Shown in pieces: positions 1-48,674 of a stretch of 64,000 nt of DNA. The notes under the pieces are model-generated. The model ran no database searches. It was not told the origin of the DNA and saw only the letters and a program-made list of their open reading frames with translations. Within the stretch, counting starts at the first letter, position 1; each line of letters starts with the position of its first letter. This DNA is from Squalus acanthias (taxonomy: Eukaryota), in NCBI GenBank assembly GCA_030390025.1, contig JASTWF010000329.1, forward strand, positions 124,001 through 188,000, in the 5' to 3' direction. The translations under genes were made by a program, and so were the position numbers.

Positions 1-2295
1 TTCCCCATCCCCGGGAGGCACAGGTCGGACAGACTCGGCTGTCTCACCCTCCCGAGGGACAGACGACCCCTGCCGATCGCGCGCGACGATGACGGTGGTG
101 GGGTGGGGCGCAGCACCCGCGGCGGGCGACTGCCCCCCTTTTGCGGAGGGACCTTCCTCCTCGCAGTCCTCCTGCTGGGGGCGGAGCTTTCTTTTTAACG
201 TATTGGGGCCCGGAGAGGGGGAGGCCTCCATGTCTGCTGGGGCCTCCCTCTCTGCCCCCTTCCGACGACTGGGTTTCTTGGGCCCCTCGGGCCCGAGCCC
301 GGCCGCAGGTCTTGATTCAGCTGCCTCAGCAGTTGCGGTCACGGTCACGGGCCCGGGCACGAGGACCCCCCCAGTCTCATGCGTCCCGACCAACTCCGCG
401 ATATACTCGGGCGTGAGTTCGGCCAATTCAGATGTTTCCTCCGCGAGGGGATCCGCCCTTATGTGTTTATTTTTCCTACGCGCCTTCCTTCCCCCCGGAC
501 GCTCTCCCTCCTCCCCGCCGGAGGCCGTGGTGGTGTTGGCCTCCGATTCCGACCGCGCATCCGTCGCCGTGCGGACAGCATCAGGGGGAGGGGGGGTGGC
601 GGCGCCAACCCTGGCCGCGCCAGGTGTCGTGGCGGCCTTGGAGGCGGGGCAGTTTTTGCGGACGTGCCCCACCTCCTTACAGGCGTAGCACCGCACGCCG
701 TCCGAGGTCCAGAAGACGCGGTGGGCGGTCCCCCCGTGGAGCACCGTGAACGCGCCGTCCGCGTCCTCCTCCCGCGCCAGCCGGACGAAAAGCTGGCGCC
801 GGAAGGAGAAGACGTGCCGAAGGCTGGCTTCCCGGAAGCCGAGCGGGATGGGTGTGATCCCCGACCTCACCTCCCCCAGTTGACGTAGGTGGGGGAGGAG
901 GAGCTCACCCGGAACAAAGGGCGGGACGTTGGAAACCACAATCCTTTGCGCGGTGGCCTCAAGGGGGTCCACCGGCAGGAAGGTCCCGCCCACGGTGAGC
1001 CCCTTCTCGATGGCCAGGGACACCGCCCGCTCCGACCCCAGGAAGAACACAGCCTTGCCGTACATTTTAGAGGCGGCGACGATGGCTGAAGGGCCGACAA
1101 CCCCAGCCATGGCTTTTACACACGCCTCTATAGTCATGTTGGGGTGAGTGTAGCTCTTGACCCCATTCTTCCTCGTAAGGAGGGTAAAAGGTGACGGGGT
1201 AACAGGAGGACTCGTGGCTGCGGCCGTGGCCGCGGCTGCCACGCTTGCGTACGTCCTCGCTGCCCCCGCCACCGACGAAGATGTACTCGCCATAATGGAG
1301 GGTTCTTTAAGGGCTACACTCACCCCAAGTCACAGGCCTGAAGGTGTTAATGGCCTCGGTTTTTTTTTTGTTTTCCCCCGAGCAGAGGGAGCTCTTAAAT
1401 TGAAGGCACACCTCTCCCTTTAGTTGATTGAATTGGGAGAGGGGCCTTCTCCCCTCTGCTCAATGGGTACTTAATTAAAATAGATTGAGGTGCCTCTTAG
1501 AGAGAGAGGCAGAGAGAGACAAGAGACAAAGAGAGAGAGAGAGAGGGGGGTGGGAAGGAGGGAAGCCGCAAGGGCAGGGTCGCCACTCAGGATGGTGGGT
1601 GGGTGGGTGTTGGCAGGGGGGTGCACTCTCCGATGTAATACAAGTCTTTGGTGGTGGTCTTCTGGTGGGGGGAGAAGATGTCTTCACCTGGGATAGCTGG
1701 AGATGCCCAGGCTCAGTCCTGCACCAGGTCTTAACGATGCCCAATTGGATTAAATTAATTGGGGAACTTCACCTAGGCAGCTCCAGCTGTCCCAGGTCAG
1801 GCAATGGGAAAGGGGTGTTTAATATGGTGTGTGCGGCCTAGCTTTTACAGAAGCCACACACACACACGCCCCTTGGATGTTCCGGCCTTCTTCTTGTCTT
1901 CTTTCCTCCCCCCACCTACAAAACAAAGTCTCTGGGAGAGTGCCCCAGAATCACACCCACCTGTAGCTGATATTCTTTCCTTCCTTCCTCCTTCCAAACA
2001 GATGATGTTTTGTTGTTTTCTCCCCTCTCTCCCTCTCCTAAAATGGAGGCCAATTGAGGAGGCAGTGTGGAAAGGCCTCTCCTCTGTTGTTAATGGCCTT
2101 GGCCTTCCTTTCCTTCTTTTCCTTCTCCTCTCCTGTCCTCTCTCTCCAGGCACCTCAGTTGTGGATGTGTTGGTTGTTGGTGGTGGGCTGTTGGCTGGTC
2201 TCCTTCTCCTTCTCCTCTTCCTGCTCACAGAGACCACCACTCTGCTGCTGCTGCTGCTCACCACAAGCTTGTGATTTCAAATAAAGCTGTTGGAC
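1..2295 (-). mobile_element. Tx1-clade non-LTR retrotransposon, copy 1 (5' UTR and ORF1 N-terminal part; runs off left edge)
   Basis: Near-identical to 7164-9464 at an offset of about 7169 bp. ORF1 ATG at 1293 on the minus strand, and the frame appears open to the window edge. It includes the CYACKEVGHVRKNC zinc knuckle. Confidence 0.93.
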
Positions 2296-2378
2296 TATAA
2301 CCTGGTGTTGATCTTTTTGGTTTGACAGAACGCAAATTTACTGTAAATCAATTAAAACTTGAAATGAAACTTAATAAA

Positions 2379-5300
2379 TCAAATTAAAATTTGAAAGTCC
2401 GGGGTGACGATGCACTCCAGTCCCCGCGGCGCCCACCGGTCGCGGAAAAACTCAAGCGTGCCGGCGGACACAGCGTGCTCCATCTCCAGGGCCACCCGGG
2501 CGCGAACATGGCCGCGGAAGAGAGGCAGGCAATCGGGCCGAACGACCCCCTCGACCGCCCGCTGCCTGGACCAATTAATGGCTTTCTTGGCCAGGCCCAG
2601 GAGCAGTCCTACGAGGAGGTCCTCCGACCTACCCGCTCCCCTCCGCACCGGGTGACCGTAGATCAGGAGCGTGGGGCTGAAGTGCAACCAGAAATTGAGG
2701 AGCAGCCCCTTCAAATAATGAAAGAGGGGCTGCAACCTCTCACATTCAACATAAATGTGATAAACGGACTCCTCCAGGCCGCAAAAATGGCAAGCAGCCT
2801 GGGAGTCCGTAAACCTACTTAAAATCCTATTGCACGGGACTGCTCCGTGCAACACCCTCCAGGCCAAGTCCCCAATAGAACAAGGGAAGACTCCCGCGTA
2901 GAGAGCCTTCCAATGGGGACCTTCGCCTCCGCCGGACGGCAGGATGGTACGCCAAGGCGTGTCCGGACGGCAGACGAAGATGGCAAAGTGGAGAGTGTGC
3001 AGGAGCAGCCCGTACAGGAAACGCCTCCGTGCGGATTGAAAGGGCACGGAGGGCATTTCTCCGAGAAGGCTCAAGTGGTGAGGCGGCGGCTCCCGAGGGA
3101 GGATTCGGGGCCGGGCGCCGATAAGGAATTCCGTCCGAACGGGGGTCAGTTCGGACGGGATCGCCCCACGTGCTTGAGCCTCCTCGACACACCTAGTGGA
3201 GACGGGGCCCAGTGCCACTTTTAGCGACTCGATGGCTTTGACCGCGAGCCGGACGTTGACCCAAGACATGCGCCTCGCCAACTCCTCCGGCGCCATCCAG
3301 CCCGCTCCTCCGCCATCGAGCAGGTCCCCGACTCTGGTCACCTTACCGGGCACAGCCCTGCCCTCCGCCAGCCAGCCGAACCCGCGGTCGTGGAGGTGCG
3401 GATTCCTGAACAGCGGCTCCCGAAGGACGGCCGCCGCTCCTGACGGGGGAGAACTGCGCTCGGAGGCGACGCTGTTCCAAACCCATAGCAGTTCCTGGTA
3501 GAAGACAGGCAGCTCCCGCAGGCTGGCACGCGTGCCACCCACTCTCACAAACAGGAGCTGCGTGTCGTAATTGAGGCCGTGCAGCTGGCGGAAGAAATAC
3601 GTCGCCAGCGCACGCCACCTAGGAGGATTCTCCACGTACAGGTATCTCTGCAGCGTCTGAAGACGGAAAGTCGCCGCCTGGGTGCGAAGGCACACCAGCG
3701 CCTGACCGCCCTCCCTAAGCGGGAGACTCAAAACCGCGGCAGAGACCCAGTGCTTCCTTTTGTCCCAGAAGAAGTCGACGAGCTTCTTCTGCATCTTGGC
3801 GACAAACGCAGGGGGAGGGATCAAAGTGACCAACCGGTACCACAACATGGCGGCCACCAGCTGGTTTATGACCAGCGCTCGACCCCTGTAGGACAACACT
3901 CGGAGCAGTCCTGTCCAGCGTCCTAGGCGAGCGGTGACTTTGGCCTCCAGCTCTTGCCAGTTCGCCGGCCAGGCGTCCTCGGCCGGGCTGAGGTAGACTC
4001 CCAGGTAGAGGAGGTGCGTGGTGCTCCAGGCGAAAGGCCCGAACTCCTCCGGCAGGGAGTCCACCTGCCATGGGCCCACCAGGAGTCCAGAACATTTCTC
4101 CCAGTTGATCTTGGCGGAGGATGCGTCCGAGTAAATCTGCTGGCATTCTCGCATCCTCCGCAAGTCGACGGGATCCGTGACCGCGAGGAGCACGTCATCG
4201 GCGTAAGCCGAGAGGACCACCTCCACGCCCGGCCCTTGCAGAGCCAGTCCCGTCAACCTCTTCCGCAAGAGGCGCAGGAAAGGCTCCACGCAAACGGCGT
4301 ATAACTGACCGGACATGGGGCATCCCTGACGCACCCCCCTCCCGAAGCGAAGGGGCGCCGTCAAAGACCCGTTAACTTTAATCAGACACTCCGCGGCGGC
4401 GTACAGAAGTCGGATCCGGGCGACGAAATGCGTCCCGAACCCGAATGCGCGCAGAGTCCCGAAAAGATACTCGTGATCCACCCTGTCGAACGCCTTCTCC
4501 TGATCCAGGGAAAGGAAGGCGACCGACAGACCAGCCCTCTGGGAATGGTGGACCAGGTCCCGGACCAGATGGATGTTATCGTGGATACTCCGGCCCGGGA
4601 CCGTGTAGGACTGGTCGGGGTGGATCATGCGGGCCAGCACGGTGCCAAGGCGAGCAGACATAGCCCTGGCGAAAATTTTGTAGTCCGTGCTGAGGAGGGA
4701 GACCGGGCGCCAGTTCTTAAGTAGGCGGAGATCGCCCTTCTTGGGCAGCAGGACGATGACCGCCCTGCGCCAAGAGAGGGGCATCTCCCCGGTCGCCAGA
4801 CTTTCCCCCAGGACCCGCGCGTAGTCGTCCCCCAAGACGTCCCAGAACGCCCTGTGGAACTCCACGGTCAGCCCGTCCAGCCCCGGGGACTTGCCCCTCG
4901 AGAGCTGGCGCAGGGCGCCGGTCAGCTCCGCCAGGCTTAGCGGAGCTTCTAAATTCTCGGCGCCCTCCGGGCCGACCTTCGGCAGGTCCTCCCACAAAAC
5001 TCTGCGCGCATCCTCGCTGGACGGATCCGAAGAGAACAGAGCCCCGTAATAGGCCCGGGCCTCCGCGCTGATGCCCTCCGGATCCGAGACCAGAGATCCG
5101 TCGTCGGCCAGCAGCCCCAAGAGCTGCTTACGGACCCCCCGTCTTTTTTCCAGCGAGTAGAAGAAGGGGGAGCCGCGGTCCAGGTCCCGCAGGAACTGGA
5201 TCCGCGACCTCACGTACGCGCCTCGGGACCCGACCAGCTGCAGGTCCTTCAGCGCGCCCTTCTTCTCTTCGTACACCTTCCGCAGGGCCGGGTCCTCGAC

Positions 5301-6279
5301 GACCTGACCGAGACAGGACTCCAGGTCGAGCACTTCTTTCTCCAATCGCCCGACCCGGGCCTCCCGCCTCTTGGTCGACCCCTTCGCGTACTCCTGACAG
5401 AAGACGCGGACGTGAGCCTTGCCCACGTCCCACCATAGCCTCAAGGAGGGGAAGCCTCCCCGCTTCCTTCTCCAGTCGGCCCAGAACCGGCGAAACGAAT
5501 CCCGGAACCGCGCGTCCTCCAGCAGCAGGTTGTTAAAATGCCAGTACGCGGACCCCCCCCCGCGCGCGCAGCGGAGCGAGCTCCGCCCACACCAGGTGGT
5601 GGTCCGTGCACGGCACCGGCCGCATGGAAGCCGCCGGAACGCAGGAGACGTACGCCCGGGAAATGTAAAGGCGGTCGATTCTGGACCTTCCTCCTCCAGA
5701 CCTCACGCTCGTGAAGGCGCTGGAGTCGGGATGGAGATTTCGCCAGACGTCCACCAAGTCGAAGGACCCGACCAGGTCCCGCAACTTCTCCATCGCCGCC
5801 GGGCTTCGCGGGGGACCCGACCGGTCCCGCGCCTCGAGGGTACAATTGAAATCCCCCCCGAGGATGACGCACTCGCCCACGTCGATGGAGCCCAGAAGAG
5901 CGGACACTTCTCCGAAGAAGCGCACTTGCTGCGCACCGGTCCGGGGGGCGTACACGTTCACTAAATGGAGCGGCACGCCTCCCAGGCGAACAGTGACCTG
6001 GAGCAAGCGGCCCGGCACGTGCTCCTTGACCCTCAAGATCTCCGGCTGAAAATGCGGGGCCAGCAAGACAGCCACCCCGCAGGAATTGTTGGAGAGGTGA
6101 CTCATGCTGACCCCTCCTTGCCACTCCAGGAGCCACGTGGCCTCGTCTCCCGGAACGGTGTGGGTTTCTTGCAGGAAGCACACCGCATATTTCCCGTCCC
6201 GAAGGACCGAGAAGTTATTGAATCTACGGCGCGCCTCCCTGCTGCCGTTGATGTTGAGGCTGGCTATGGTTATCTTCAT
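2379..6279 (-). CDS. Tx1 ORF2: APE endonuclease + reverse transcriptase + C-terminal CCHC; one frameshift in a G-run near 5553-5561
   Basis: Endonuclease motifs MKITIASLNING, FLQETH, GGDFN, SRIDRLY and TDHH in ORF 5533-6297. RT motifs KSPGLDG, NWRPVSLL, LDQEKAFDRV, GVRQGCP and YADD, plus CHFCGLEESVYHIYVEC, in ORF 2379-5444. Removing one G joins the two frames. Confidence 0.93.
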
Positions 6280-6304
6280 CTCAGAAGCATAGTGCAACCT
6301 CTAC

Positions 6305-8462
6305 CTAACGGAGGGGAGGGAGGGCGGTCACTGACGACCGCCACTCCCTCAGCAGCCCAGTGTGGAACGTCTTGAGCCGACGCAGCTCGAGCCGGCCAAC
6401 GTCCTTGTCCGCGCCCATGATTTTAACGGCGGCGCGGACGGACACGACGAGCAGCGCCAGCTCCGACCACTTGTCGAGGGCCAGCCGGATCTTCTTGTGA
6501 CGACCCTGGCTCACGGCCATAAAATCCCGGAGTTCCCCTACGGGGATGAGGGGAGAGTCGGTGAAGGGCACGAGGGCGTCCATCACCTCGCTGCCGATGG
6601 ACTCCAAATCGTCCTCGATGCCCCCCACCGAGTCCCCGTCCTCCTCCGGGAGGTCGTCACCGGCGGCCAACCCGTCCGTCACACAGGGTGCAGCGAACGG
6701 CTCGGCCGCACCGGCCGGCCCCGCCTCCGTCACGATCCCACCCCCAGGATCGGTGGCAGAGGAGTCCACCCTGGGCTCCTTCAGGGGCGCCGGGCCGGGA
6801 GGCGGCGGCGGCGGTTCGGGGCCCCCCCCCCGCCTCAGGCGCCGGGGCGACCGGAGAAACCGGGGAGAAAATAATCCCAAATTCCTCCAGCACGTCCGGC
6901 GCCAACAACAGAGACGGAGTCAGGGGGCTTTCCGTCTCCCCGCCACCAACCTCCGACCCAGCGGGCTGGGGATTGCTACACTCCTCCACCAGGTCGAGCA
7001 GTCCCTGGGAGATATCTGGGTTATAAAAGGCGGGCTCGGCTTCAGCCTCTTTGGCCTCGCCCGCCCCAGTCCCCAGGACGCCCGACCCGGCGAGGAGCAA
7101 CGGTTCAGGTTCTACATTTCCCTCCGCGGGTTGTTCCGCGCCCCCCCCCACGGGCAGGGTCTCTTCCCCATCCCCGGGAGGCACAGGTCGGACAGACTCG
7201 GCTGTCTCACCCTCCCGAGGGACAGACGACCCCTGCCGATCGCGCGCGACGATGACGGTGGTGGGGTGGGGCGCAGCACCCGCGGCGGGCGACTGCCCCC
7301 CTTTTGCGGAGGGACCTTCCTCCTCGCAGTCCTCCTGCTGGGGGCGGAGCTTTCTTTTTAACAAATTGGGGCCCGGAGAGGGGGAGGCCTCCATGTCTGC
7401 TGGGGCCTCCCTCTCTGCCCCCTTCCGACGACTGGGTTTCTTGGGCCCCTCGGGCCCGAGCCCGGCCGCAGGTCTTGATTCAGCTGCCTCAGCAGTTGCG
7501 GTCACGGTCACGGGCCCGGGCACGAGGACCCCCCCAGTCTCATGCGTCCCGACCAACTCCGCGATATACTCGGGCGTGAGTTCGGTCAATTCTGATGTTT
7601 CCTCCGCGAGGGGATCCGCCCTTAGGTGTTTAGTTTTCCTACGCGCCTTCCTTCCCCCCGGACGCTCTCCCTCCTCCCCGCCGGAGGCCGTGGTGGTGTT
7701 GGCCTCCGATTTCGACCGCGCATCCGTCGCCGTCGACGCGCGGACAGTATCAGGGGGAGGGGGGGCGGCGGCGCCAACCCTGGCCGCGCCAGGTGTCGTG
7801 GCGGCCTTGGAGGCGGGGCAGTTTTTGCGGACGTGCCCCACCTCCTTACAGGCGTAGCACCGCACGCCGTCCGAGGTCCAGAAGACGCGGTGGGCGGTCC
7901 CCCCGTGGAGCACCGTGAACGCGCCATCCGCGTCCTCCTCCCGCGCCAGCTGGACGAAAAGCTGGCGCCGGAAGGAGAAGACGTGCCGAAGGCTGGCTTC
8001 CCGGAAGCCGAGCGGGATGGGTGTGATCCCCGACCTCACCTCCCCCAGTTGACGTAGGTGGGGGAGGAGGAGCTCACCCGGAACAAAGGGCGGGACGTTG
8101 GAAACCACAATCCTTTGCGCGGTGGCCTCAAGGGGGTCCACCGGCAGGAAGGTCCCGCCCACGGTGAGCCCCTTCTCGATGGCCAGGGACACCGCCCGCT
8201 CCGACCCCAGGAAGAACACAGCCTTGCCGTACATTTTAGAGGCGGCGACGATGGCTGAAGGGCCGACAACCCCAGCCATGGCTTTAACGCACGCCTCTAT
8301 AGTCATGTTGGGGTGAGTGTAGCTCTTGACCCCATTCTTCCTCGTAAGGAGGGTAAAAGGTGACGGGGTAACAGGAGGACTCGTGGCTGCGGCCGTGGCC
8401 GCGGCTGCCACGCTCGCGTACGTCCTCGCTGCCCCCGCCACCGACGAAGATGTGCTCGCCAT
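6305..8462 (-). CDS. Tx1 ORF1 (nucleic-acid-binding protein with zinc knuckle); one frameshift in a G10 run at 6822-6831
   Basis: MASTSSS start, ASKMYGKAVFFL / VVSNVPPF region and CYACKEVGHVRKNC. The C-terminal part continues in frame 6305-6880 and ends just before the ORF2 start. Confidence 0.88.
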
Positions 8463-9433
8463 AATGGAGGGTTCTTTAAGGGCTACACTCACCCCAAGTC
8501 ACAGGCCTGAAGGTGTTAATGGCCTCGGTTTTTTATTTTGTTTCCCCTGAGCAGAGGGAGCTCTTAAATTGAAGGCACACCTCTCCCTTTAGTTGATTGA
8601 ATTGGGAGAGGGGCCTTCTCCCCTCTGCTCAATGGGTACTTAATAAAAAGTAATTGAGGTGCCTCTTAGAGAGAGAGGCAGAGAGAGACAAGAGACAAAG
8701 AGAGAGAGAGAGGGGGGTAGGAAGGAGGGAAGCCGCAAGGGCAGGGTCGCCACTCAGGATGGTGGGTGGGTGGGTGTTGGCAGGGGGGTGCACTCTCCGA
8801 TGTAATAAAAGTCTTTGGTGGTGGTCTTCTGGTGGGGGGAGAAGATGTCTTCACCTGGGATAGCTGGAGATGCCCAGGCTCAGTCCTGCACCAGGTCTTA
8901 ACGATGCCCAATTGGATATAATTAATTGGGGAACTTCACCTAGGCAGCTCCAGCTGTCCCAGGTCAGGCAATGGGAAAGGGGTGTTTAATATGGTGTGTG
9001 CGGCCTAGCTTTTACAGAAGCCACACACACACACACCCCTTGGATGTTCCGGCCCTCTTCTTTTCTTCTTTCCTCCCCCCACCTACAAAACAAAGTCTCT
9101 GGGAGAGTGCCCCAGAATCACACCCACCTGTAGATGTTGTTCTTTCCTTCCTTCCTCCTTCCAAACAGATGATGTTTGTTGGTGATGTTTTTCTCCCCTC
9201 TCTCCCTCTCCTAAAATGGAGGCCAATTGAGGAGGCAGTGTGGAAAGGCCTCTCCTCTGTTGTTAATGGCCTTGGCCTTCCTTTCTTTCCTCTCTCCTCT
9301 CCTGTCCTCTCTCTCCAGGCACCTCAGTTGTGGTTGTTGGTTGTTGGTGGTGGTCTGCTGTCTGGTCTCCTTCTCCTTCTCCTCTTCCTGCTCACAGAGA
9401 CCACCACTCTGCTGCTGCTGCTTCAGCAGCTCG

Positions 9434-9531
9434 AAGCTTGTGATTTCAAATAAAGCTGTTGGACTATAACCTGGTGTTGTGCGACTTCTCATTTTTGTCC
9501 ACCCCAGTCCAACACCGGCATCTCCGCATCA
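9434..9531 (+). mobile_element. Penelope-type terminal repeat (pLTR) 3' fragment, the Tx1 target
   Basis: AAGCTTGTGATTTCAAATAAAGCTGTTGGACTATAACCTGGTGTTG...CCAGTCCAACACCGGCATCTCCGCATCA. Homologous to 18745-18850 and to 47392-47459 plus 48282-48360, the latter carrying a hammerhead. Absent from the paralogous site at about 62313. The Penelope assignment is from recall of the motif. Confidence 0.75.
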
Positions 9532-9636
9532 CAGTTATTTGATTCAGACTCTCCACACTCAGATTTCTCACCATCTCTCCTGAAGGCGCTGGTAAAACAT
9601 CCTACACATTGTAACAGAAGAACTCCAGAGCTGGGC

Positions 9637-10420
9637 CCCCCATTTACAGTCCCAGGGCTGAAATTCCCATGTACAGTCCCAGGGTTAGAATCCCCATGAA
9701 CAGTCCCAGGGTTGGAATCCCCATGTACAGTCCCAGGGTTGGAATCCCCATGTACAGTCCCAGGGTTTGAATCCCCATGTACAGTCCCAGGGTTAGAATC
9801 CCCATGTACAGTCCCAGGGTTAGAATCCCCATGTACAGCCCCAGGGTTGGAATCCCCATGTACAGTCCCAGGGTTAGAATCCCCATGTACAGTCCCAGGG
9901 TTAGAATCCCCATGTACAGTCCCAGGTTAGAATCCCCATGTACAGTCCCAGGGTTAGAATCCCCATGTACAGTCTCGGTTAGAATCCCCATGTACAGTCC
10001 CAGGGTTAGAATCCCCATGTACAGTCCCAGGGTTAGAATCCCCATGTACAGTCCCAGGGTTAGAATCCCCTTGTACAGTTCCAGGGTTGGAATCCCCATG
10101 TACAGTCCCAGGGTTAGAATCCCCATGCACAGTCCCAGGGTTGGAATCCCCATGTACAGTCCCAGGGTTGGGATCCCCATGTGCAGTTCCAGGGTTGGAA
10201 TCCCCATGTACAGTCCCAGGGTTAGAATCCCCATGTACAGTCCCAGGGTTGGAATCCCCATGTACAGTCCCAGGGTTGGGATCCCCATGCACAGTTCCAG
10301 GGTTGGAATCCCCATGTACAGTCCCAGGGTTAGAATCCCCATGTACAGTCCCAGATTTGGAATCCCCATGTACAGTCCCAGGGTTGGAATCCCCATGTAC
10401 ATTCGCAGGGCTGGAACCCT
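9637..10420. repeat. 27-bp minisatellite (ATCCCCATGTACAGTCCCAGGGTTRGA), ~29 copies
   Basis: Direct tandem repeat. The same array precedes the other type-A ZNF exons. Confidence 0.97.
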
Positions 10421-11011: not shown

Positions 11012-12133
11012 ATGGAAGCAGAAAGCACCGTTCAGAGCGGGGAGAAACCGTACACATGTTCTGTGTGTGGACGAGGCTTCAGCCGATCCTCTTGCCTGTC
11101 GAGACACAAGCGCAGTCACACCGGGGAGAGGCCGTTCACCTGCTCCGAGTGTGGGAAGGGATTCACTCAGTCATTCCACCTGCTGACACACCAGCGAGTT
11201 CACACTGACGAGAGACCTTTTAAATGTCAGGACTGCGGGAAGTGCTTTAAAAGTTCCAGGGAACTGACACTCCATCATAGTGTTCACACTGACAAGAGAC
11301 CGTTCAGGTGCTCTCACTGCGGGACTGGGTTTAGGCGATCATCTGACTTCACTGTACACCAGCGCACTCACACCGGGGAGAGGCCGTTCACTTGCTCTGA
11401 GTGTGGGAAGGGATTCACTCGGTCATCCAGCCTGCTGACACACCAGCGAGTTCACACTGGGGAGAGGCCGTTCACCTGCTCTGACTGTGGAACAGGATTC
11501 ACTCGGTCATCCGACCTGCTGATACACCAGCGAGTTCACACCGGGGAGAGGCCTTTTAAATGCCCGGTCTGTGGAAAGTGTTATAAAAGTTCCAGCGAAC
11601 TGATGTCCCATCAACGTGCTCACACTGACGAGAGACCGTTCAGGTGCTCTCATTGCGGGACTGGGTTCAGGCGATCATCTGAACTCACTGTACACCAGCG
11701 CACTCACACCGGGGAGAGGCCGTTCACCTGCTCTGAGTGTGGGAAGGGATTCACTCGGTCATCCAGCCTGCTGACACACCAGCGAGTTCACACTGGGGAG
11801 AGGCCATTCACCTGCTCTGAGTGTGGGAAGGGATTCACTCAGTCATCCAACCTGCTGAAACACCAGCGAGTTCACACTGGGGAGAGACCGTTCACCTGCT
11901 CTGAGTGTGGGAAGGGATTCACTCGGTCATCCGACCTGCTGACACACCAGCGAGTTCACACTGGGGAGAGGCCGTTCACCTGCTCCGAGTGTGGGAAGGG
12001 ATTCACTCGGTTATGCAACCTGTTGACACACCAGCGAGTTCACACTGGGGAGGGGCCGTTCACCTGCTCCGTGTGTGGGAAGGGATTCACTCATTCATCC
12101 AACCTGCTGACACACCAGCGAGTTCACAAGTGA
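11012..12133 (+). CDS. C2H2 zinc-finger protein, type A copy 1 (13 fingers)
   Basis: 13 CxxC-x12-HxxxH fingers with TGERP linkers. Polypyrimidine tract and TTTTACAG acceptor ending at 10919. ATG at 11012. Confidence 0.93.
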
Positions 12134-13417: not shown

Positions 13418-15017
13418 TATAAAGCCCCACAGTCTCCCCTGGCTCTAGGCCCTGAACAAGGGTCTGGAGATGGGGAATAAAGCCCCACAGTTTCCCCTGG
13501 CCCCAGGGCCTGAAGAAAGGTCTGGAGAAGCGGAATAAAGCCCCACAGTCTCCCCTGGCCCCAGGGTCTGAACAAGGGTCTGGAGAAGGGGAATAAAGCC
13601 CCACAGTCACCCCTGGCCCCAGGGTCTGAACAAGGGTCTGGAGAAGGGGAATAAAGTCCCACAGTCTCCCCTGGCCCCAGGCCTGAACAAGGGTCTGGAG
13701 AAGGGGAATAAAGCCCCACAGTCTCCCCTGGCCCCAGGGTCTGAACAAGGGTCTGGAGAAGGGGAATAAAGCCCCACAGTCTCCCCTGGCCCCAGGGTCT
13801 GAACAAGGGTCTGGAGAAGGGGAATAAAGCCCCACAGTCTCCCCTGGCCCCAGGGTCTGAACAAGGGTCTGGAGAAGGGGAATAAAGCCCCACAGTCTCC
13901 CCTGGCCCCAGGGTCTGAACAAGGGTCTGGAGAAGGGGAATAAAGTCCCACAGTCTCCCCTGGCCCCAGGGTCTGAACAAGGGTCTGGAGAAGGGGAATA
14001 AAGCCCCACAGTCTCCCCTGGCCCCAGGCCCTGAACAAGGGTCTGGAGAAGGGGATGAAAGCCCCACAGTCTCCCCTGGCCCCAGGGTCTGAACAAGGGT
14101 CTGGAGAAGGGGAATAAAGCCCCACAGTCTCCCCTGGCCCCAGGGTCTGAACAAGGGACTGGAGAAGGGGAATAAAGCCCCACAGTCTCCCCTGGCCCCT
14201 GGGTCTGGAGAAGGGGAATAAAGTCCCACAGTCTCCCCTGGCCCCAGGGTCTGGAGAAGGGGAATAAAGCCCCACAGTCTCCCCTGGCCCCTGGGTCTGG
14301 AGAAGGGGAATAAAGTCCCACAGTCTCCCCTGGCCCCAGGCCCTGAACAAGGGTCTGGAGAAGGGGAATAAAGTCCCACAGTCTCCCCTGGCCCCAGGGT
14401 CTTAACAAGGGTCTGGAGAAGGGGAATAAAGTCCCACAGTCTCCCCTGGCCCCAGGGTCTGAACAAGGGTCTGGAAAAGGGGAATAAAGCCCCACAGTCT
14501 CCCCTGGCCCCAGGGCCTGAACAAGGGTCTGGAGAAGGGGAATAAAGTCCCACAGTCTCCCCTGGCCCCAGGGTCTTAACAAGGGTCTGGAGAAGGGGAA
14601 TAAAGTCCCACAGTCTCCCCTGGCCCCAGGGTCTTAACAAGGGTCTGGAGAAGGGGAATAAAGTCCCACAGTCTCCCCTGGCCCCAGGGTCTTAACAAGG
14701 GTCTGGAGAAGGGGAATAAAGTCCCACAGTCTCCCCTGGCCCCAGGCCCTGAACAAGGGTCTGGAGAAGGGGCATAAAGCCTCACAGTCTCCCCTGGCCC
14801 CAGGCCCTGAACATGGGACTGAAGAAGGGGACTAAAGCCCCACAGTCTCCCCTGGCCCCAGGCCCTGAACAAGGGTCTGGAGAAGGGGAATAAAGCCTCA
14901 CAGTCTCCCCTGGCCCCAGGGTCTGAACAAGGGACTGGAGAAGGGGAATAAAGCCCCACAGTCTCCCCTGGCCCCAGGGTCTGAACAAAGGACTGAAGAA
15001 GGGGAATAAAGCCCCAC
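13418..15017. repeat. 59-bp minisatellite, ~28 copies, most with AATAAA
   Basis: Unit GGGAATAAAGCCCCACAGTCTCCCCTGGCCCCAGGGTCTGAACAAGGGTCTGGAGAAGG, with some shorter variant units. Confidence 0.97.
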
Positions 15018-18744: not shown

Positions 18745-18850
18745 TCATAATGCGGAGATGCCGGTGTTGGACTGAGGTGGACAAAATTGAGAGCTTGTGA
18801 TTTCAAATAAAACTGTTGGACTATAACCTGGTGTTGTGGGACCTCTCAAT
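18745..18850. mobile_element. Short inverted Penelope-type pLTR insertion with 12-bp TSD
   Basis: TTTGGATTTCAG at both 18733-18744 and 18851-18862. The paralog at about 37905-37920 is empty. The two halves of the pLTR are in opposite orientation. Confidence 0.8.
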
Positions 18851-33410: not shown

Positions 33411-33430
33411 AGTTTATATTTATTTTAAAG

Positions 33431-36400
33431 ACTCCCAGGGCAGGAACAGCACGGGTTAGATACAGAGTAAAGCTCCCTCTACACTGTCCCATCAAACACT
33501 CCCAGGGCAGGTACAGCACAGGTTAGATACAGAGTAAAGCACCCTCTACACTGTCCCACCAAACACTCCCAGGGCAGGTACAGCACGGGTTAGTTACACA
33601 GTAAAGCACCCTCTACACTGTCCCATCCAACACTCCCAGGGCAGGTACAGCACGGGTTACATACAGAGTAAAGCTCCCTGTACATTGTCCCATCAAACAC
33701 TTCCAGGGCAGGTACAGCACGGGTTAGTTACAGAGTAAAGCTCCCGCTATACTGTCCCATCAAACACTCCCAGGGCAGGTACAGCAAGGGTTAGATACAG
33801 AGTAAAGCACCCTCTACACTGTCCCACCAAACACTCCCAGGGCAGGTACAGCACGGGTTAGTTACAGAGTAAAGCTCCCGCTATACTGTCCCATCAAACA
33901 CTCCCAGGGCAGGTACAGCACGGGTTAGATACAGAGTCAAGCTCCCACTGCACTGTCCCATCAAACACTCCCAGGGCAGGTACAGCACAGGTTAGATACA
34001 GAGTAAGGCTCCCTCTACACTGTCCCATCAACCACTGCCAGGGCAGGTACAGCACAGGTTAAATACAGAGTAAAGCTCCCTCTACATTGTCCCATCAAGC
34101 ACTCCCAGGACAGGTACAGCACGGGTTAGATACAGAGTAAAGCTCTCTCTGCTCTGTCCCACCAAACACTCCCAGGATACGTACAGCACGGGTTAGATAC
34201 AGAGTAAAGCACGCTCTATACTGTCCCATCAAACACTCCCAGGGTAGGTACAGCACAGGTAAGATAGAGTAAAGGTCCCTCTGCACTGTCCCATCAAGCA
34301 CTCCCAGGGTAGGTACAGCATGGGTTAGATACAGAGTAAAGCTCGCTCTATACTGTCCCATCAAACACTCCGAGGGCAGGTACAGCACAGGGATAGATAC
34401 AAAGTAAAGCTCCCTCTACACTGTCCCATCAAACACTCCCAAGGCAGGTACAGCACAGGTTAGATACAGAGTAAAGCTCCCTCTACACTGTCCCATCAAA
34501 CACTCCCAGGGCTGGGACAGCACGGGTTAGATACAGAGTAAAGCTCCCTTTACACTATCCCATCAAACAATCCTAGGGCAGGTACAGCATGGTTTAGATA
34601 CAGAGTAAAGCTCCCGCTACATTGTCCCACCAAACACTCCCAGGGTAGGTACAGCACGGGTTAGCTGCAGAGTAAAGCTCCCTCTACACTGTCCCATCAA
34701 ACACTCCCAGGGAAGGTACAGCACAGGTTAAATACAGAGTAAGGCTCCCTCGACACTGTCCCATCAAACACTCCCAGGGTAGGTGCACTACGCGGTTAGA
34801 GACAGAGTAAAGCTCCCTCTGCACTGTTCCATCAAGCACTCCCAGGGTAGGTACAGCACGGGTTGGATACAGAGTAAAGCTCCCTCTACACTGTCCCATC
34901 AAGCACTCCTAGGGCAGGTACAGCACGAGTTAGATACAGATGAAAGCTCCCTCTGCTCTGTCCCATCAAACACTCCCAGGATAGGTACAGCACGGGTTAG
35001 ATACAGAGTAAAGCACGCTCTATACTGTCACATCAAACACTGCCAATGCAGGTACAGCACGGGATAAATATAGAGTAAAGCTCCCTCTGCACTCTCCCAT
35101 CAAGCACTCCTAGGGCAGGTACAGCACGGGTTAGATACAGAGTAAAGCTCCCTCTGCACTGTCCCATCAAACACTCCCAGGGCAGGTACAGCACGGGTTA
35201 GATACTGAGTAAAGCTCCCTCTTCACTGTCGCATCAAACACTTCCAGGGCAGGTACAGCACGGTTACATACAGAGTAAAGCTCCCTCGACACTGTCCCAT
35301 CAAACACTCCCAGGGCAGGCACAGCACGGGTTAGATACAGTGTAAAACTCGCTCTATACAGTCCTATCAAACTCTCCCAGGGTAGGAACAGCACGGGTAA
35401 AATACAGAGTATAGCTCCCTCTACACTGTCCCATCTGACATTCCTAGGGCAAGTACAGCACGTGTTAGATACAGAGTAAAGCACCCTCTACACTGTCCCA
35501 TCCAACACTCCCAGGGCAGGTACAGCACGGGTTACATACAGAGTAAAGCTCCCTGTACATTGTCCCATCAAACACTTCCAGGGCAGGTACAGCACGGGTT
35601 AGTTACAGAGTAAAGCTCCCGCTATACTGTCCCATCAAACACTCCCAGGGCAGGTACAGCAAGGGTTAGATACAGAGTAAAGCACCCTCTACACTGTCCC
35701 ACCAAACACTCCCAGGGCAGGTACAGCACGGGTTAGTTACAGAGTAAAGCTCCCGCTATACTGTCCCATCAAACACTCCCAGGGCAGGTACAGCAAGGGT
35801 TAGATACAGAGTAAAGCACCCTCTGCACTGTCCCATCCAACACTCCCAGGGCAGGTACAGCACAGGTTACATACAGAGTAAAGCTCCCTCTACATTGTCC
35901 CATCAAACACTTCCAGGGCAGGTACAGCACGGGTTAGATACAGAGTAAAGCTCCCTCTGCACTGTCCCATCAAACACTCCCAGGGCAGGTACAGCACGGG
36001 TTACATACACAGTAAAGCTCCCTTTGCACTATCCCATCAAACACTCCCAGGGCAGGTACAGAATGGGTTAGATACACAGTAAAGCTCCCACTACATTGTC
36101 CCACCAAACACTCCCAGGGTAGGTACAGCATGGGTTAGATACAGAGTAAAGCTCGCTCCACACTGTTCCATCAAACTCTCCCAGGGCAGGTACAGCACGG
36201 GGTTCGATACAGAGTAAAGCTCCCTCTACACTGTCCCATCAAACACTCCCAGGGCAGGTACAGCACGGGTTAGATACAGAGTAAAGCTCCCTCTACACTG
36301 TCCCGTCAAACACTCCCAGGGTAGGTACAGCACGGGTTACATACAGAGTAAAGGTCGCTCAATACTGTCCCATCAAACTCTCCTCGGGCCGGTACAGCAC

Positions 36401-36662
36401 GGGTTAGATACAGAGTAATGCTCCCTCTACACTGTCCCATCATACACTCCCAGGGCAGGTGCAGCACGGGTTAGATACAGTGTTAAGCTCCTTCTACACT
36501 GTCCCATCAAACATTCCCCGCGCAGGTACAGCACGGGTTAGATACAGAGTAAAACTCCCTCTACGTTATCCCATCAAACACTCTTAGGGCACATGCAGCA
36601 TGGTTTAGATAGAGTAAAGCTCCCTCTACACTGTCCCATCAAACAATCCCAGGGCAGGTACA
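33431..36662 (-). repeat. 67-bp minisatellite, ~48 copies (reverse complement of 20420-21237)
   Basis: Unit GGGTTAGATACAGAGTAAAGCTCCCTCTACACTGTCCCATCAAACACTCCCAGGGCAGGTACAGCAC. Confidence 0.97.
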
Positions 36663-36891: not shown

Positions 36892-37640
36892 TCACTTGTG
36901 AACTCGCTGGTGTCTCAGCAGGGTGGATGACCGAGTGAATTCCTTCCCACACAGGGAGCAGGTGAACGACCTCTCTCCAGTGTGAACTCGCTGGTGTGTC
37001 AGCAGCTGGGATGGCTGAGTAAAACCGTTCCCACACAGGGAGCAGGTGGCGGCCTCTCCCCAGTGTGAACTCGCTGGAGTGTCAGAAGATCCCTTGTGCT
37101 TTTAAAGTTCTTCTCACACTCAGAACATTTAAAAGCTCTCTTGTCAGTGTGAACGCGTTGGTGTGACATGAGGCTGGAGGAGTTAGTGAATCCCTTCCCA
37201 CACACAGAGCAGGTGAACGGCCTCTCCCCACTGTGAAGTCGCTGGTGTGTCAGCAGGTGGGATGACCGAGCGAATCTGTTCCCACACTCAGAGCACGTGA
37301 ACAGTCTCTCCCCAGTGTGACTGCGTTGATGAGCTTCCAGCTGGGATGGGTAATTGAATCCCTGCCCACAGTCCCCACATTTCCACGGTTTCTCCGTGGT
37401 GCGGGTGTCCTTGTGTCTCTTCGGGTTGGACGATCAGTTGAAGCCTCGCCCACACACAGAACACGTGTACGGTTTCTCCCCGCTGTGAACGATGCGATGT
37501 TTTTTCAGACTGTGTAACTGGTTAAAGCTCTTTCCACAGTCAGTGCACTGGAACACTCTCACTAGGGTGTGTGTGTCTCGGTGCTTTTCCAGTCACACTG
37601 ATGTTTGAAATCTTTTCCCACAGACAAAACAGACAAACAT
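36892..37640 (-). pseudogene. C2H2 zinc-finger gene type B copy 2; same two in-frame TGA plus a frameshift near 37050
   Basis: ATG 37640, TGA 37595 and 37436, ACG 37397 (same offsets as copy 1). There is a 1-nt loss in GAGAGGCCGCCACCTGC and fewer fingers. Confidence 0.85.
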
Positions 37641-37941: not shown

Positions 37942-38548
37942 CTGAAGGTGCTGACTCTGGCTGGGTTCAGTTCTACACTCACTGGTTCCCCTCCCTTTCC
38001 TCCCCTGAAGGTGCTGACTCTGGCTGGGTTCAGTTCTTCACTCACTGGTTCCCCTCCCTCTCCTCCCCTGAAGGTGCTGACTCTGGCTGGGTTCAGTTCT
38101 ACAATCACTGGTTCCCCTCCCTCTCCTCCCCTGAAGGTGCTGACTCTGGCTGGGTTCAGTTCGACAATCACTGGTTCCCCTCCCTCTCCTCCCCTGAAGG
38201 TGCTGACTCTGGCTGGGTTCAGTTCTTCACTCACTGGTTCCCTCCCTCTCCTCCCCTGAAGGTGCTGACTCTGGCTGGGTTCAGTTCCACACTCACTGGT
38301 TCCCCTCCCTCTCCTCTCCTGAAGGTGCTGACTCTGGCTGGGTTCAGTTCCACACTCACTGGTTCCCCTCCCTCTCCTCCCCTGAAGGTGCTGACTCTGG
38401 CTGGGTTCAGTTCTACACTCACTGGTTCCCCTCCCTCTCCTCCCCTGAAGGTGCTGACTCTGGCTGGGTTCAGTTCCTCACTCACTGGTTCCCCTCCCTC
38501 TCCTGCCCTGAAGGTGCTGACTCTGGCTGGGTTCAGTTCACTCACTGA
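37942..38548 (-). repeat. 63-bp minisatellite, ~10 copies, intron of type-B ZNF
   Basis: Minus-strand unit GAACTGAACCCAGCCAGAGTCAGCACCTTCAGGGGAGGAGAGGGAGGGGAACCAGTGAGTGTA. Confidence 0.96.
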
Positions 38549-38955: not shown

Positions 38956-38960
38956 ACAAG

Positions 38961-42610: not shown

Positions 42611-42734
42611 CCTATGCCCCGGCCCCTCTGCGCTGGAGTTCCCCACAAGCAGCTGGGCCTCTCACTCAACGCCCCGGCCCCTCCGCACTGGCAGCTGGGC
42701 CTCTCGCTATCGCCCCTGCCCCTCCGCACTGGGA

Positions 42735-45265: not shown

Positions 45266-45267
45266 TC

Positions 45268-46980: not shown

Positions 46981-46982
46981 GG

Positions 46983-47390: not shown

Positions 47391-47459
47391 CATGATGTGG
47401 AGATGCCGGCGTTGGACTGGGGTGGACAAAAATGAGAAGTCGCACAACACCAGGTTATA

Positions 47460-48281
47460 CGGAATTCCTTATCGGCGCCCGGCCCCGAATCCTCCCTCGG
47501 GAGCCGCCGCCTCACCACTTGAGCCTTCTCGGAGAAATGCCCTCCGTGCCCTTTCAATCCGCACGGAGGCGTTTCCTGTACGGGCTGCTCCTGCACACTC
47601 TCCACTTTGCCATCTTCGTCTGCCGTCCGGACACGCCTTGGCGTACCATCCTGCCGTCCGGCGGAGGCGAAGGTCCCCATTGGAAGGCTCTCTACGCGGG
47701 AGTCTTCCCTTGTTCTATTGGGGACTTGGCCTGGAGGGTGTTGCACGGAGCAGTCCCGTGCAATAGGATTTTAAGTAGGTTTACGGACTCCCAGGCTGCT
47801 TGCCATTTCTGCGGCCTGGAGGAGTCCGTCTATCACATTTATATTGAGTGTGAGAGGTTGCAGCCCATCTTTCATTATTTGAAAGGGCTGCTCCTCAATT
47901 TCTGGTTGCACTTCAGCCCCACGCTCCTGATCTACGGTCACCCGGTGCGGAGGGGAGCGGGTAGGTCGGAGGACCTCCTCGTAGGACTGCTCCTGGGCCT
48001 GGCCAAGAAAGCCATTAATTGGTCCAGGCAGCGGGCGGTCGAGGGGGTCGTTCGGCCCGATTGCCTGCCTCTCTTCCGCGGCCATGTTCGCGCCCGGGTG
48101 GCCCTGGAGATGGAGCACGCGGTGTCCGCCAGCACGCTTGAGTTTTTCCGCGACCGGTGGGCGCCGCGGGGGCTGGAGTGCATCGTCACCCCGGACTTCC
48201 AAATTTTGATTTGATTTATTAAGTTTCATTTAAAGTTTTAATTGATTTACAGTAAATTTTGATTTGTCCAACCAAAAAGAG
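47460..48281 (+). mobile_element. Tx1 copy 3, 5'-truncated (~820 bp) with 15-bp TSD
   Basis: Nearly identical to the ORF2 C-terminus and 3' UTR of copy 2. CAACACCAGGTTATA at 47445-47459 and CAACACCAGGTGATA at 48282-48296. Confidence 0.95.
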
Positions 48282-48317
48282 CAACACCAGGTGATAGTCC
48301 AACAGATTTATTTAATT

Positions 48318-48355
48318 TTACAAGCTTTCGGAGCTGTCGCTCCTTCCTCAGGTAA
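48318..48355 (-). ncRNA. Minimal type-I hammerhead ribozyme motif adjacent to the Tx1 target
   Basis: Minus strand TTAC-CTGAGGA-A-GGAGC gaca GCTCC-GAAA-GCTT-GTAA, with stem I TTAC/GTAA and palindromic AAGCTT. Confidence 0.8.
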
Positions 48356-48674
48356 GTTAGCAGTGAGAGAATCTCCCAGAATTCACAATTTAAACACAGA
48401 CAAAATCTATTCAAATATTTCCCTACATCAAAGACACACTAAGAGCACAGCCAAGACAATGAGATGTGTCCCAGGGGGTCCAACGTGTCAAACCACCTGC
48501 TGGCTGCATATCCTGTCAATTTGTGTTCTTGTGTTAGTCTTTTTAAAAAAAAAAAACACCTGGGAAGACCGGCCATGATGTCAAGTCACGTTCTGTATCG
48601 TGACATGAACCCGATATCGCGATTGAGGCCATCCTCATGAGTGCGGAACTTGGCTAAACTCCAGAGAGGTCGGA

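What the first reader, a model, noticed from the sequence alone, without database searches (positions are those of the whole stretch)
2265..48360. Site-specific Tx1 retrotransposon that targets a hammerhead-ribozyme-bearing Penelope terminal repeat
Seen: both visible Tx1 3' junctions (2311/2310 on minus, 48281/48282 on plus) are followed by CAACACCAGGT(T/G)ATAGTCCAACAG. Both outer 5' junctions (9465-9531 and 47392-47459) are preceded by ...GGTGGACAAAAATGAGAAGTCGCA-CAACACCAGGTTATA. The two loci are 38 kb apart, in opposite orientation, with different outer flanks and different lengths, so they look like independent insertions at the same base. The host repeat carries a hammerhead motif about 20-35 nt from the site (48318-48355), and Tx1 lies antisense to it. 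An unoccupied target exists at about 18822-18836. Established: Tx1-clade elements are often sequence-specific (U2 snRNA, tRNA arrays, microsatellites, the Xenopus Tx1D DNA transposon), and Penelope-like pLTRs carry minimal hammerheads. Inference: this is a retrotransposon parasitising another retroelement's ribozyme-containing terminus as a multi-copy safe harbour. I do not know of this target being described, but I could not check.
Basis: partly seen in the sequence, partly recalled or inferred. Interest (0 to 1): 0.88.

Follow-up and report, generated by a model that had tools for sequence, protein, structure and literature searches.

The report
Tx1 retrotransposon targeting Penelope element ends
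A young Tx1-type jumping gene in this 3.7-Gb vertebrate genome inserts almost only at one exact base in the tail of another, hugely abundant jumping gene (a Penelope-like element that carries a hammerhead ribozyme motif), which adds a new target to a habit already known for the Tx1 group.

Summary

- **The element.** Window 9479-2311 (minus) is a full-length 7,169-bp Tx1-clade LINE. Its ORF2 is 51% identical to Xenopus Tx1L ORF2. Window 47460-48281 is an 822-bp 5'-truncated copy with a 15-bp target duplication.
- **One correction.** The flank at 2310 is not host DNA. It is the 5' end of the next copy in a tandem array of three.
- **Genome-wide specificity.** 932 of 1,035 intact 3' tails are followed by (C/G)AACACCAG. 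In a sample of 60 separate loci, 51 sit at the same site.
- **The site.** It lies about 52 nt from the 3' end of a Penelope-like element (RT plus GIY-YIG-like ORF, terminal repeat, minimal hammerhead). The 24-mer target occurs 110,778 times. Tx1 lies antisense to the element.
- **Extras.**
  - Duplications start at a fixed base and are 5-18 bp long.
  - They regenerate the target, so arrays of mixed subfamilies build up.
  - Most full-length copies begin with about 50 nt copied from the target.
- **Novelty.** Tx1 families that target other transposons are already in print (piggyBac, Mariner, LTR, Harbinger). I found no report of a Penelope target. This is a new member of a known kind. I saw no sign that the hammerhead matters to Tx1.

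The parts
1..2310 (-). 5' 2.3 kb (target-like start, 5' UTR, most of ORF1) of tandem Tx1 copy B. It runs off the window start.
   Evidence: 97.2% identical to 7164-9479. The rest of copy B and a third copy C lie upstream in the contig.
2311..9479 (-). Full-length Tx1-clade LINE, copy A, 7,169 bp. 3' UTR 2311-2378. RT and C-terminal frame 2379-5702. APE frame 5533-6300. ORF1 frames 6305-6919 and 6657-8498 (CCHC knuckle). 5' UTR up to 9479. Two frame breaks, one in ORF1 and one at the APE/RT boundary.
   Evidence: Pfam RVT_1 6.3e-38, Exo_endo_phos 6.7e-13, zf-CCHC 1.6e-4. 51% identity over 99% of the query to Xenopus YTX2. Frames.
9434..9479 (-). Target-like first 46 nt of the full-length element (CAACACC...AAGCTT), a copy of the Penelope sequence that lies 3' of the nick.
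   Evidence: 17 of 19 full-length 5' ends carry 45-57 nt of it. It differs at 3 of 46 places from the local right-hand flank of this array, so it is not a local duplication.
9480..9531 (+). Last ~52 nt ('tail') of the interrupted Penelope-like element. This is the left half of the target.
   Evidence: The same tail ends the 3' UTR of a copy with an open 921-codon frame. In public runs many unrelated sequences follow position 9531 (table 7).
18765..18836 (-). Unoccupied target (24-mer at 18813-18836) inside a short inverted-repeat Penelope fragment. The fragment has its own 12-bp duplication, CTGAAATCCAAA.
47392..47459 (-). Penelope tail plus the 5' copy of the 15-bp target duplication (47445-47459).
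   Evidence: An unrelated repeat ends at 47391.
47460..48281 (+). 822-bp 5'-truncated Tx1 copy (end of ORF2 plus 3' UTR).
   Evidence: 97.2% identical to 2265-3134.
48282..48367 (-). Right half of the target in a second Penelope subfamily. 3' copy of the duplication at 48282-48296. Minimal hammerhead at 48318-48355.

Best explanation
This is a recently active, target-specific Tx1-clade LINE.

Inferred mechanism: its APE endonuclease nicks one strand of the 3' terminal region of a Penelope-like element (PLE). The nick falls at ...GAGAAGTCGCA(C)|AACACCAGGTTATAG..., read on the strand antisense to the PLE. The freed 3' OH then primes reverse transcription of the Tx1 RNA.

Shown:
- The second-strand break falls 5-18 bp downstream, most often 15 bp, giving a duplication that always starts at the same base.
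- The duplication rebuilds the target at both ends of each insert.
- Most full-length copies start with 45-57 nt of target sequence.
- Insertions therefore pile up head to tail into arrays whose members belong to different subfamilies.

Why the site is such a large harbour: it lies about 52 nt from the PLE 3' end, so it survives in nearly every 5'-truncated or hairpin-shaped PLE fragment. That gives over 110,000 mostly dead targets.

Inferred, not shown:
- That the protein rather than RNA homology reads the site.
- That transcription starts at or before the target-like segment.
- That this segment helps full-length 5' joining by annealing to the target.

The hammerhead appears to be a bystander.
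For: Family
- APE, RT and CCHC domains.
- 51% identity over 99% of the query to Xenopus Tx1L ORF2, against 35-38% to teleost Tx1-type proteins.

Specificity
- All 30 loci of the best 3'-end matches are followed by (C/G)AACACCAGGTTA.
- Of 60 separate loci taken from the first 100 exact hits to an ORF2-end 23-mer: 46 continue as PLE for 24 nt or more, 5 have 13 nt or more of target, 4 have only SAACACC, 4 belong to another subfamily, and 1 is rearranged.
- Genome-wide there are 1,035 intact tails. 964 are followed by SAACACC and 932 by SAACACCAG.
- The target 24-mer occurs 110,778 times in 3.7 Gb, and the reversed control pattern 0 times.

Duplications
- PLE sequence continues across the insert, with 5-15 bp repeated, in window locus 2 and in L047, L073, L083, L092 and L096.
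- Spacers of 13-18 nt separate stacked truncated copies.

Arrays
- 12 of 63 clusters have copies about 7.0-7.2 kb apart.
- Neighbours carry different 3' tails.

Host repeat
- An open 921-codon frame with RVT_1.
- Its C-terminus is 40% identical (E 3e-12) to a stretch that passes Pfam GIY-YIG.
- The same terminal sequence stands before the ATG and after the 3' UTR.

Presence elsewhere
- Near-identical Tx1 contigs, including a truncated copy joined through a 15-nt target, occur in public runs.
Against: - No biochemical or expression evidence. The runs laid are contigs, and 'RNA' is only a guess for them.
- The samples favour young copies (exact anchors), and members of an array are not independent.
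- 4 of 59 junctions show SAACACC followed by DNA that does not continue the canonical target: three by non-Penelope DNA (two of these have no visible duplication) and L042 by a look-alike site in the Penelope tail.
- The first flank base is G instead of the target's C in 17 of 59.
- In two loci the 3' copy of the duplication is canonical while the 5' copy is a variant.
- These last three points fit a template RNA that itself ends in about 7 nt of target sequence. Part of the specificity may therefore lie in RNA-DNA pairing.
- 71 of 1,035 tails lack an exact SAACACC.
Confidence: 0.88

Rival explanations
1. Site choice is set mainly by base pairing, not by the endonuclease. The Tx1 RNA carries target sequence at both ends (about 7 nt, SAACACC, at the 3' end and about 50 nt at the 5' end). 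A weakly specific nick is turned into an insertion only where these anneal.
For: The first flank base is often G where the target has C (17 of 59). 4 of 59 junctions have SAACACC and then no canonical target: three continue in non-Penelope DNA, two of them without a duplication, and L042 sits at a look-alike site in the Penelope tail. The 3' copy is canonical and the 5' copy a variant in L073 and L096. The 5' target-like segment is carried by the element and is not copied locally.
Against: Seven nucleotides is little to find 1 site in 3.7 Gb. 5'-truncated copies, which lack the 5' segment, hit the same base. A sister subfamily with another tail has duplications starting TACAC in non-Penelope DNA, which points to a protein-level preference for an ACAC core. 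932 of the 964 SAACACC junctions go on with AG.
Confidence: 0.2
2. The 'target' is simply the end of the Tx1 element, and insertion is not site-specific.
For: The 3' flank at 2310 is indeed Tx1 sequence. Full-length copies do begin with the motif.
Against: The motif occurs 110,778 times against about 2,000 Tx1 3' ends. It is part of a PLE 3' UTR next to an RT/GIY-YIG frame. PLE sequence is continuous across inserts apart from a short duplication. Empty sites exist.
Confidence: 0.02
3. One ancestral Tx1-in-Penelope composite was spread by segmental duplication, by recombination, or by mobilisation of the composite.
For: Some arrays have members of equal truncated length (four copies 2,289 bp apart; six copies about 500 bp apart), which looks like local duplication.
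Against: Outer flanks, PLE subfamilies, PLE fragment shapes, truncation points, duplication lengths and 3'-tail subtypes all differ between loci, and even between neighbours in one array.
Confidence: 0.03

Closest known systems
Tx1L of Xenopus laevis, which inserts into the Tx1D (piggyBac-type) DNA transposon
   Same: Closest named protein: 51% identity over 99% of the ORF2 query. APE plus RT architecture. Insertion at one site inside another, multicopy transposon (PMC4494074 introduction and PMC6719617, passages read).
   Different: Here the target is a retroelement of the Penelope class, present in over 110,000 copies. The full-length element carries about 50 nt of its target at its 5' end, and long mixed-subfamily tandem arrays form. 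Details of the Tx1L duplication and nick are recalled only, because the primary paper (PMC85248) was not held.
Crocodilian Tx1 families: Tx1-Mar (Mariner-N4_AMi), Tx1-8_Crp and Tx1-4_AMi (LTR retrotransposons), Tx1-9_AMi (Harbinger) (Kojima 2015, PMC4494074, passages read)
   Same: Tx1-clade LINEs with preferred insertion into specific families of other transposons, LTR retrotransposons among them. In that paper a family counts as target-specific if more than 20% of flanks share a sequence. Here the share is about 90%.
   Different: Penelope does not occur in that paper's main text; its supplementary figures were not seen. The family here is much younger: most sampled copies are 98-100% identical to the window copy, against 85-87% to consensus there.
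Keno, Kibi and Koshi (teleost Tx1-clade elements that target U2 snRNA genes and TC or TTC microsatellites)
   Same: Same clade and same strategy of multicopy targets (PMC4494074 introduction, passage read).
   Different: Only 35-38% identity to teleost Tx1-type proteins. Those targets are genes or simple repeats, not a transposon.
R2 and R1 of arthropod rDNA
   Same: Strict site specificity. Template RNA that can carry target sequence. Cotranscription with the target can strengthen target-specific integration (PMC4494074 discussion, passage read).
   Different: Different clades and endonucleases. The target there is a host gene. Here the 5' homology is to the sequence downstream of the nick (the duplicated part), not upstream.
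Minimal hammerheads of Penelope-like elements (Cervera and de la Pena 2014, PMC4209133, passages read)
   Same: CUGANGA and GAAA cores. A 4-bp helix I. An unpaired base at the 5' end of helix II. No real helix III but a palindrome (AGCU). Location in the terminal repeat. Frequent pairs on opposite strands 100-700 bp apart.
   Different: Helix II is 5-6 bp here, against 7-8 bp in the Schistosoma families. No Rfam model scores it. Cleavage has not been tested.

Membership tests
Tx1 clade of non-LTR retrotransposons | ORF2 with an N-terminal APE endonuclease and a central RT | tested here: met
   Exo_endo_phos 6.7e-13 and RVT_1 6.3e-38. A weak zf-RVT hit (24.6 bits) lies below its cut-off.
Tx1 clade of non-LTR retrotransposons | The RT groups with Tx1L rather than with other LINE clades | tested here: inconclusive
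   The best named hits are Xenopus 'Transposon TX1 149 kDa protein' (51% identity, 99% coverage) and YTX2-named fish proteins. No tree with outgroup clades was built.
Tx1 clade of non-LTR retrotransposons | ORF1 with a CCHC zinc knuckle | tested here: met
   zf-CCHC 1.6e-4, 22.1 bits against a cut-off of 20.8.
Target-specific non-LTR retrotransposon | Most copies share one flank, and the duplication is made of target sequence | tested here: met
   932 of 1,035 tails. 51 of 60 loci. Duplications seen.
Target-specific non-LTR retrotransposon | The endonuclease cleaves the target sequence specifically | not testable with these tools
   Needs a nicking assay.
Penelope-like element (host repeat) | A single ORF with RT followed by a GIY-YIG endonuclease | tested here: met
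   921-codon frame with RVT_1 1.3e-8. Pfam GIY-YIG does not score it directly. Residues 818-904 are 40% identical (E 3e-12) to a stretch that passes PF01541 at 35.2 bits.
Penelope-like element (host repeat) | Terminal direct repeat (pLTR), inverted 5' copies and a short 3' 'tail' | tested here: met
   The same sequence stands before the ATG and at the 3' end. Hairpin-shaped copies have a tail on one arm and their own duplications. This matches the description in PMC3846280 (passages read).
Hammerhead ribozyme, PLE minimal type I | Conserved cores CUGANGA and GAAA, with position 7 free | tested here: met
   In 47 aligned copies the core is invariant or at least 90% conserved, while position 7 is C, U, A or G.
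Hammerhead ribozyme, PLE minimal type I | Helices I and II kept by pairing | tested here: met
   97.4% of 423 cells pair, against 23-53% when partners are slid. One helix I pair is CG in 31 copies and UA in 12. The copies are related, so the 12 may stem from one event.
Hammerhead ribozyme, PLE minimal type I | Self-cleavage | not testable with these tools
   No Rfam family reaches threshold. Published PLE minimal hammerheads cleave poorly and as dimers (PMC4209133, passage read).

The most novel reading that the evidence does not exclude
The element is in effect a retrotransposon with homology arms. Its RNA would carry about 7 nt of target at the 3' end and about 50 nt at the 5' end. Base pairing, not only the endonuclease, would then fix both junctions and make each full-length copy a new target. 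That would explain the precise full-length insertions and the self-seeding tandem arrays. It would also offer a natural template for retargeting a LINE by rewriting its ends.
Probability: 0.3. Interest if true: 0.65.

Novelty: new member of a known kind. Interest (0 to 1): 0.42.

Why it matters
It widens the known targets of the Tx1 clade from DNA transposons, LTR elements, small RNA genes and microsatellites to the third class of retroelements.

It shows a very clean natural case: about 90% of some 1,000 young copies sit at one base. That makes it a good system for studying how an APE-type endonuclease, and perhaps template homology, achieves specificity over roughly 25 bp.

The site lies in the last ~52 nt of the host element, the part that every truncated copy keeps. 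This explains how a strict specialist can still have over 100,000 harmless landing sites. The regenerated target explains the tandem LINE arrays, which complicate assembly and annotation of such genomes.

It does not reveal a new kind of system, and I found no sign that the ribozyme takes part.

Tried and rejected
- **Rfam.** The window and one locus gave no hammerhead at gathering score. Nothing relevant appeared at E up to 10 on 321 nt. The motif was therefore checked by alignment and pair counts instead.
- **GIY-YIG.** Pfam did not score the PLE C-terminus directly, and NCBIfam gave only generic RT hits. A whole-genome PF01541 search returned one locus. It is a different PLE that merely carries a nested hairpin copy of the target repeat.
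- **Flank extension.** Six 6-kb extensions from Tx1 flanks held only PLE fragments without a complete coding frame; the longest, L104, reached back only into the last 82 codons of the PLE frame. A long copy was then found by searching with an 82-residue C-terminal piece.
- **Expression.** The listed holders are contigs whose 'RNA' label is a guess. Laying four of them shows presence and junctions. It shows no transcript start, strand or level.
- **Earlier notes of this scan.** Nothing for this genome, this sequence or these words.
- **Primary Tx1L paper.** Not held.
- **Not done.** No clade tree, no structure prediction and no complex prediction, because the identity to Tx1L made them unnecessary for the verdict.
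- **Ribozyme or promoter use by Tx1.** I considered that Tx1 might use the ribozyme or a PLE promoter. Tx1 is antisense to the ribozyme, only about 52 nt of PLE lie upstream of it, and its 5' segment holds at most half of the motif. PMC3846280 raises antisense promoter motifs in pLTRs (passage read), but nothing here tests that.


Full report
**What is in the window**

The four junctions are as described.
- The 24-mer CAACACCAGGTKATAGTCCAACAG occurs 4 times in the window, against 0.01 expected from shuffles.
- The left-flank 21-mer GGACAAAAATGAGAAGTCGCA occurs twice, against 0 expected.

A self-comparison changes one point. Window 1-2310 is 97.2% identical to 7164-9479. These 2.3 kb encode an ORF1-like protein with a CCHC knuckle. 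So 9479-2311 (minus) is one full-length element of 7,169 bp:
- target-like start and 5' UTR;
- ORF1;
- APE (Exo_endo_phos 6.7e-13);
- RT (RVT_1 6.3e-38);
- a short 3' UTR.

Window 2310-1 is the head of a second copy in tandem.

Sequence fetched upstream in the contig shows the rest of that copy and a third one. Only after the third copy does the host repeat resume. The third copy has a different 3'-tail subtype from the first two, so the array grew by separate insertions.

The window copy has two frame breaks, one in ORF1 and one at the APE/RT boundary. Contigs from public runs differ from it by single-base length differences in those two neighbourhoods (table 4). The breaks therefore look private to this copy.

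The second locus, 47460-48281, is an 822-bp 5'-truncated copy. It is flanked by a 15-bp duplication, CAACACCAGGT(T/G)ATA, inside a continuous host repeat.

**Family**

The RT-containing frame is 51% identical over 99% of its length to the Xenopus laevis 'Transposon TX1 149 kDa protein'. It is 35-38% identical to teleost and other fish proteins of the same type. Partial hits of 67-69% occur in a stingray record and a sturgeon record. With the domain order, this places the element in the Tx1 clade. I built no tree.

**Is the site a rule?**

The assembly holding the window has 3.7 Gb.
- A search with the last 150 nt of the element gave 871 first-look candidates. The 40 that were scored were all 100% identical. 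In all 30 loci cut out, the 3' end is followed by (C/G)AACACCAGGTTA.
- The flanks in those 30 loci then continue four ways:
  - host repeat in 10;
  - the head of a full-length copy in 13;
  - a variant head in 1;
  - a truncated copy after 13-18 nt of target in 6.
- A 23-mer at the end of ORF2 has 1,982 hits with up to 2 mismatches. The first 100 listed hits, all exact, fall into 63 clusters. I fetched the terminal copy of the first 60 clusters.

Result for those 60:

| Flank after the 3' end | Loci |
|---|---|
| Host repeat for 24 nt or more | 46 |
| At least 13 nt of target, then something else | 5 |
| Only (C/G)AACACC, then sequence that does not continue the canonical target | 4 |
| Sister subfamily with another tail and non-host flanks | 4 |
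| Rearranged | 1 |

One of the four 'only SAACACC' cases (L042) sits at a look-alike CCAACACCGG in the sense strand of the host repeat's own tail.

Pattern counts over the whole assembly, with no sampling by me:

| Pattern | Count |
|---|---|
| Intact 3' tails | 1,035 |
| Tails followed by SAACACC | 964 |
| Tails followed by SAACACCAG | 932 |

The reversed control patterns gave 0 in every count. These counts include array members and favour young copies.

**Duplications and arrays**

Six inserts have both ends in view with host repeat on both sides: window locus 2, L047, L073, L083, L092 and L096. In each, the host sequence is continuous apart from a repeat of 5-15 bp that always begins at the same base. 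Stacked truncated copies are separated by 13-18 nt of target. A public-run contig joins a truncated copy to 15 nt of target (table 5).

Twelve of the 63 clusters hold copies about 7.0-7.2 kb apart. Six more hold short copies at short, often equal, spacing. Neighbours in long arrays carry different tail subtypes. One example is the six-member array on contig 2 near 4.33-4.37 Mb. That argues for repeated insertion into a regenerated target. The equal-length short arrays may instead be local duplications.

**The head of the element**

Seventeen of 19 full-length 5' ends begin with 45-57 nt that match the host repeat downstream of the nick (CAACACC...AAGCTT, often on through TCGGAGC). They then switch to Tx1-specific sequence at about the same place in arrays on different contigs. 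Two of 19 switch after 16 nt.

In the window's array this segment differs at 3 of 46 positions from the local host flank. It therefore travels with the element and is not a long local duplication. I infer that:
- it is part of the transcript;
- it makes each full-length copy a fresh target;
- it may help precise 5' joining by annealing.

None of this is shown.

**The host repeat**

Short copies are hairpin-shaped. They have an inverted arm, a sense arm, a ~37-nt 'tail' on one arm, and their own 12-13-bp duplications.

One longer hairpin copy runs back into a coding frame. Searching the assembly with its last 82 residues gave 43,446 first-look candidates. The 150 that were scored were 96-100% identical, with open frames up to 921 codons. 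One such copy was fetched:
- it has RVT_1 (1.3e-8);
- its C-terminal stretch is 40% identical (E 3e-12) to a genomic segment that passes Pfam GIY-YIG;
- the same terminal sequence stands directly before its ATG and at the end of its ~440-nt 3' UTR.

This is the structure described for Penelope-like elements: pLTRs, inverted copies and a tail (PMC3846280 and PMC11167929, passages and one section read).

The Tx1 site lies about 52 nt from the element's 3' end. The 24-mer around it occurs 110,778 times with up to 1 mismatch. At least two host subfamilies that differ just beyond the 24-mer are hit.

**The hammerhead**

No Rfam model scores it.

In 47 distinct copies the cores CUGANGA and GAAA are invariant or at least 90% conserved, while position 7 takes all four bases. 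The helix II loop varies in length and sequence. A 4-bp helix I and a 5-bp helix II pair in 97.4% of 423 cells, against 23-53% when partners are slid. One helix I pair is C-G in 31 copies and U-A in 12. The copies are related, so this may be a single event.

Three further features match the PLE minimal hammerheads of Cervera and de la Pena (PMC4209133, passages read):
- an unpaired A before helix II;
- a palindromic AGCU in place of helix III;
- frequent pairs on opposite strands.

From the standard numbering I infer cleavage after GAAAGCUU, 40 nt upstream of the Tx1 site in the host's sense. Cleavage is untested.

I found no link between the ribozyme and Tx1 targeting.

**Open points**

- The first flank base is G in 17 of 59 junctions where the host has C.
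- Four of 59 junctions have SAACACC and then no canonical target: three continue in non-host DNA, two of them without a visible duplication, and the fourth is L042.
- In two loci the 3' copy of the duplication is canonical while the 5' copy is a variant.

These points fit a template RNA that ends in a few nucleotides of target. They leave room, which I put at about 0.2-0.3, for pairing to share in the specificity.

The four sister-subfamily copies have duplications starting TACAC (three) or AAGAG (one) in unrelated DNA. This hints at an older, looser preference around an ACAC core.

**What is known**

Tx1-clade families that target other transposons are in print:
- Tx1L into Tx1D (piggyBac type);
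- Tx1-Mar into a Mariner family;
- two crocodilian families into LTR retrotransposons;
- one family into Harbinger elements.

Others target U2 genes and microsatellites (PMC4494074, passages read; PMC6719617, passage read).

Five of my six full-text searches bore on Tx1 targets or a Penelope target; the sixth concerned PLE hammerheads. None turned up a paper that reports a Penelope-like element as the target of a Tx1 or any other LINE. The word Penelope is absent from the main text of PMC4494074.

Repbase, Dfam, Repbase Reports, subscription journals and that paper's supplementary figures were not seen. The family may well be catalogued there.

**Verdict**

The finding is real, well supported and tidy. 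It is a new target for a known strategy, not a new kind of system. The target-like head and the self-seeding arrays are the parts most worth an experiment.

Noticed in passing
L048, L049, L074, L075 (contigs 1 and 2 of the assembly): A sister Tx1 subfamily, 92-95% identical to the window copy over the last 130-250 nt (end of ORF2 and 3' UTR), with the tail ...ATCAAAAGAG. It sits in non-Penelope DNA. Its 12-16-bp duplications start TACAC in three of four cases. This suggests a looser, older site preference.
   Followed up: partly
L042: One Tx1 copy lies in the opposite orientation, at a look-alike CCAACACCGG inside the Penelope tail itself.
   Followed up: no
L108, and the table: The Penelope-like family is extremely abundant and young. 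There were 43,446 first-look candidates for its last 82 residues. The 150 scored were 96-100% identical, and several have open frames of 600-921 codons.
   Followed up: partly
window 11104-12128, 19449-20041, 54192-55299 (also 36897-37490 minus, 63680-64000): Arrays with an 84-bp period whose unit reads like C2H2 zinc-finger repeats. The window seems to lie in a zinc-finger gene cluster. No protein search was run.
   Followed up: no
window 26245-32720, 33427-36662, 20422-21239, 13419-15017, 9638-10410, 62437-63056, 37942-38539, 50407-51072: Several satellites are present: 107 bp x 60, 67 bp x 48, 58 bp x 28, 27 bp x 23-29 and 63 bp x 10. The 67-bp units at 20422 and 33427 look like reverse complements of each other (read by eye). 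The 63-bp arrays at 37942 and 50407 are inverted copies of each other.
   Followed up: no
contig 2 near 150.18 Mb and 154.04 Mb (table): Arrays of truncated Tx1 copies at constant spacing: four copies 2,289 bp apart and six copies 498-515 bp apart. These look like local tandem duplication rather than repeated insertion.
   Followed up: no
window 2200-9600 laid on runs X1, X5, X11, X12: Public runs filed under four different coded organism labels hold contigs of this Tx1 with only a few differences per kilobase. Either the labels cover one species, or the family is shared almost unchanged between close relatives.
   Followed up: no
L024 and L062: Two full-length heads switch from target to a different 5' sequence (CCTCAGCAGCC...) after only 16 nt. 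This may be an alternative or older 5' end of the element.
   Followed up: no
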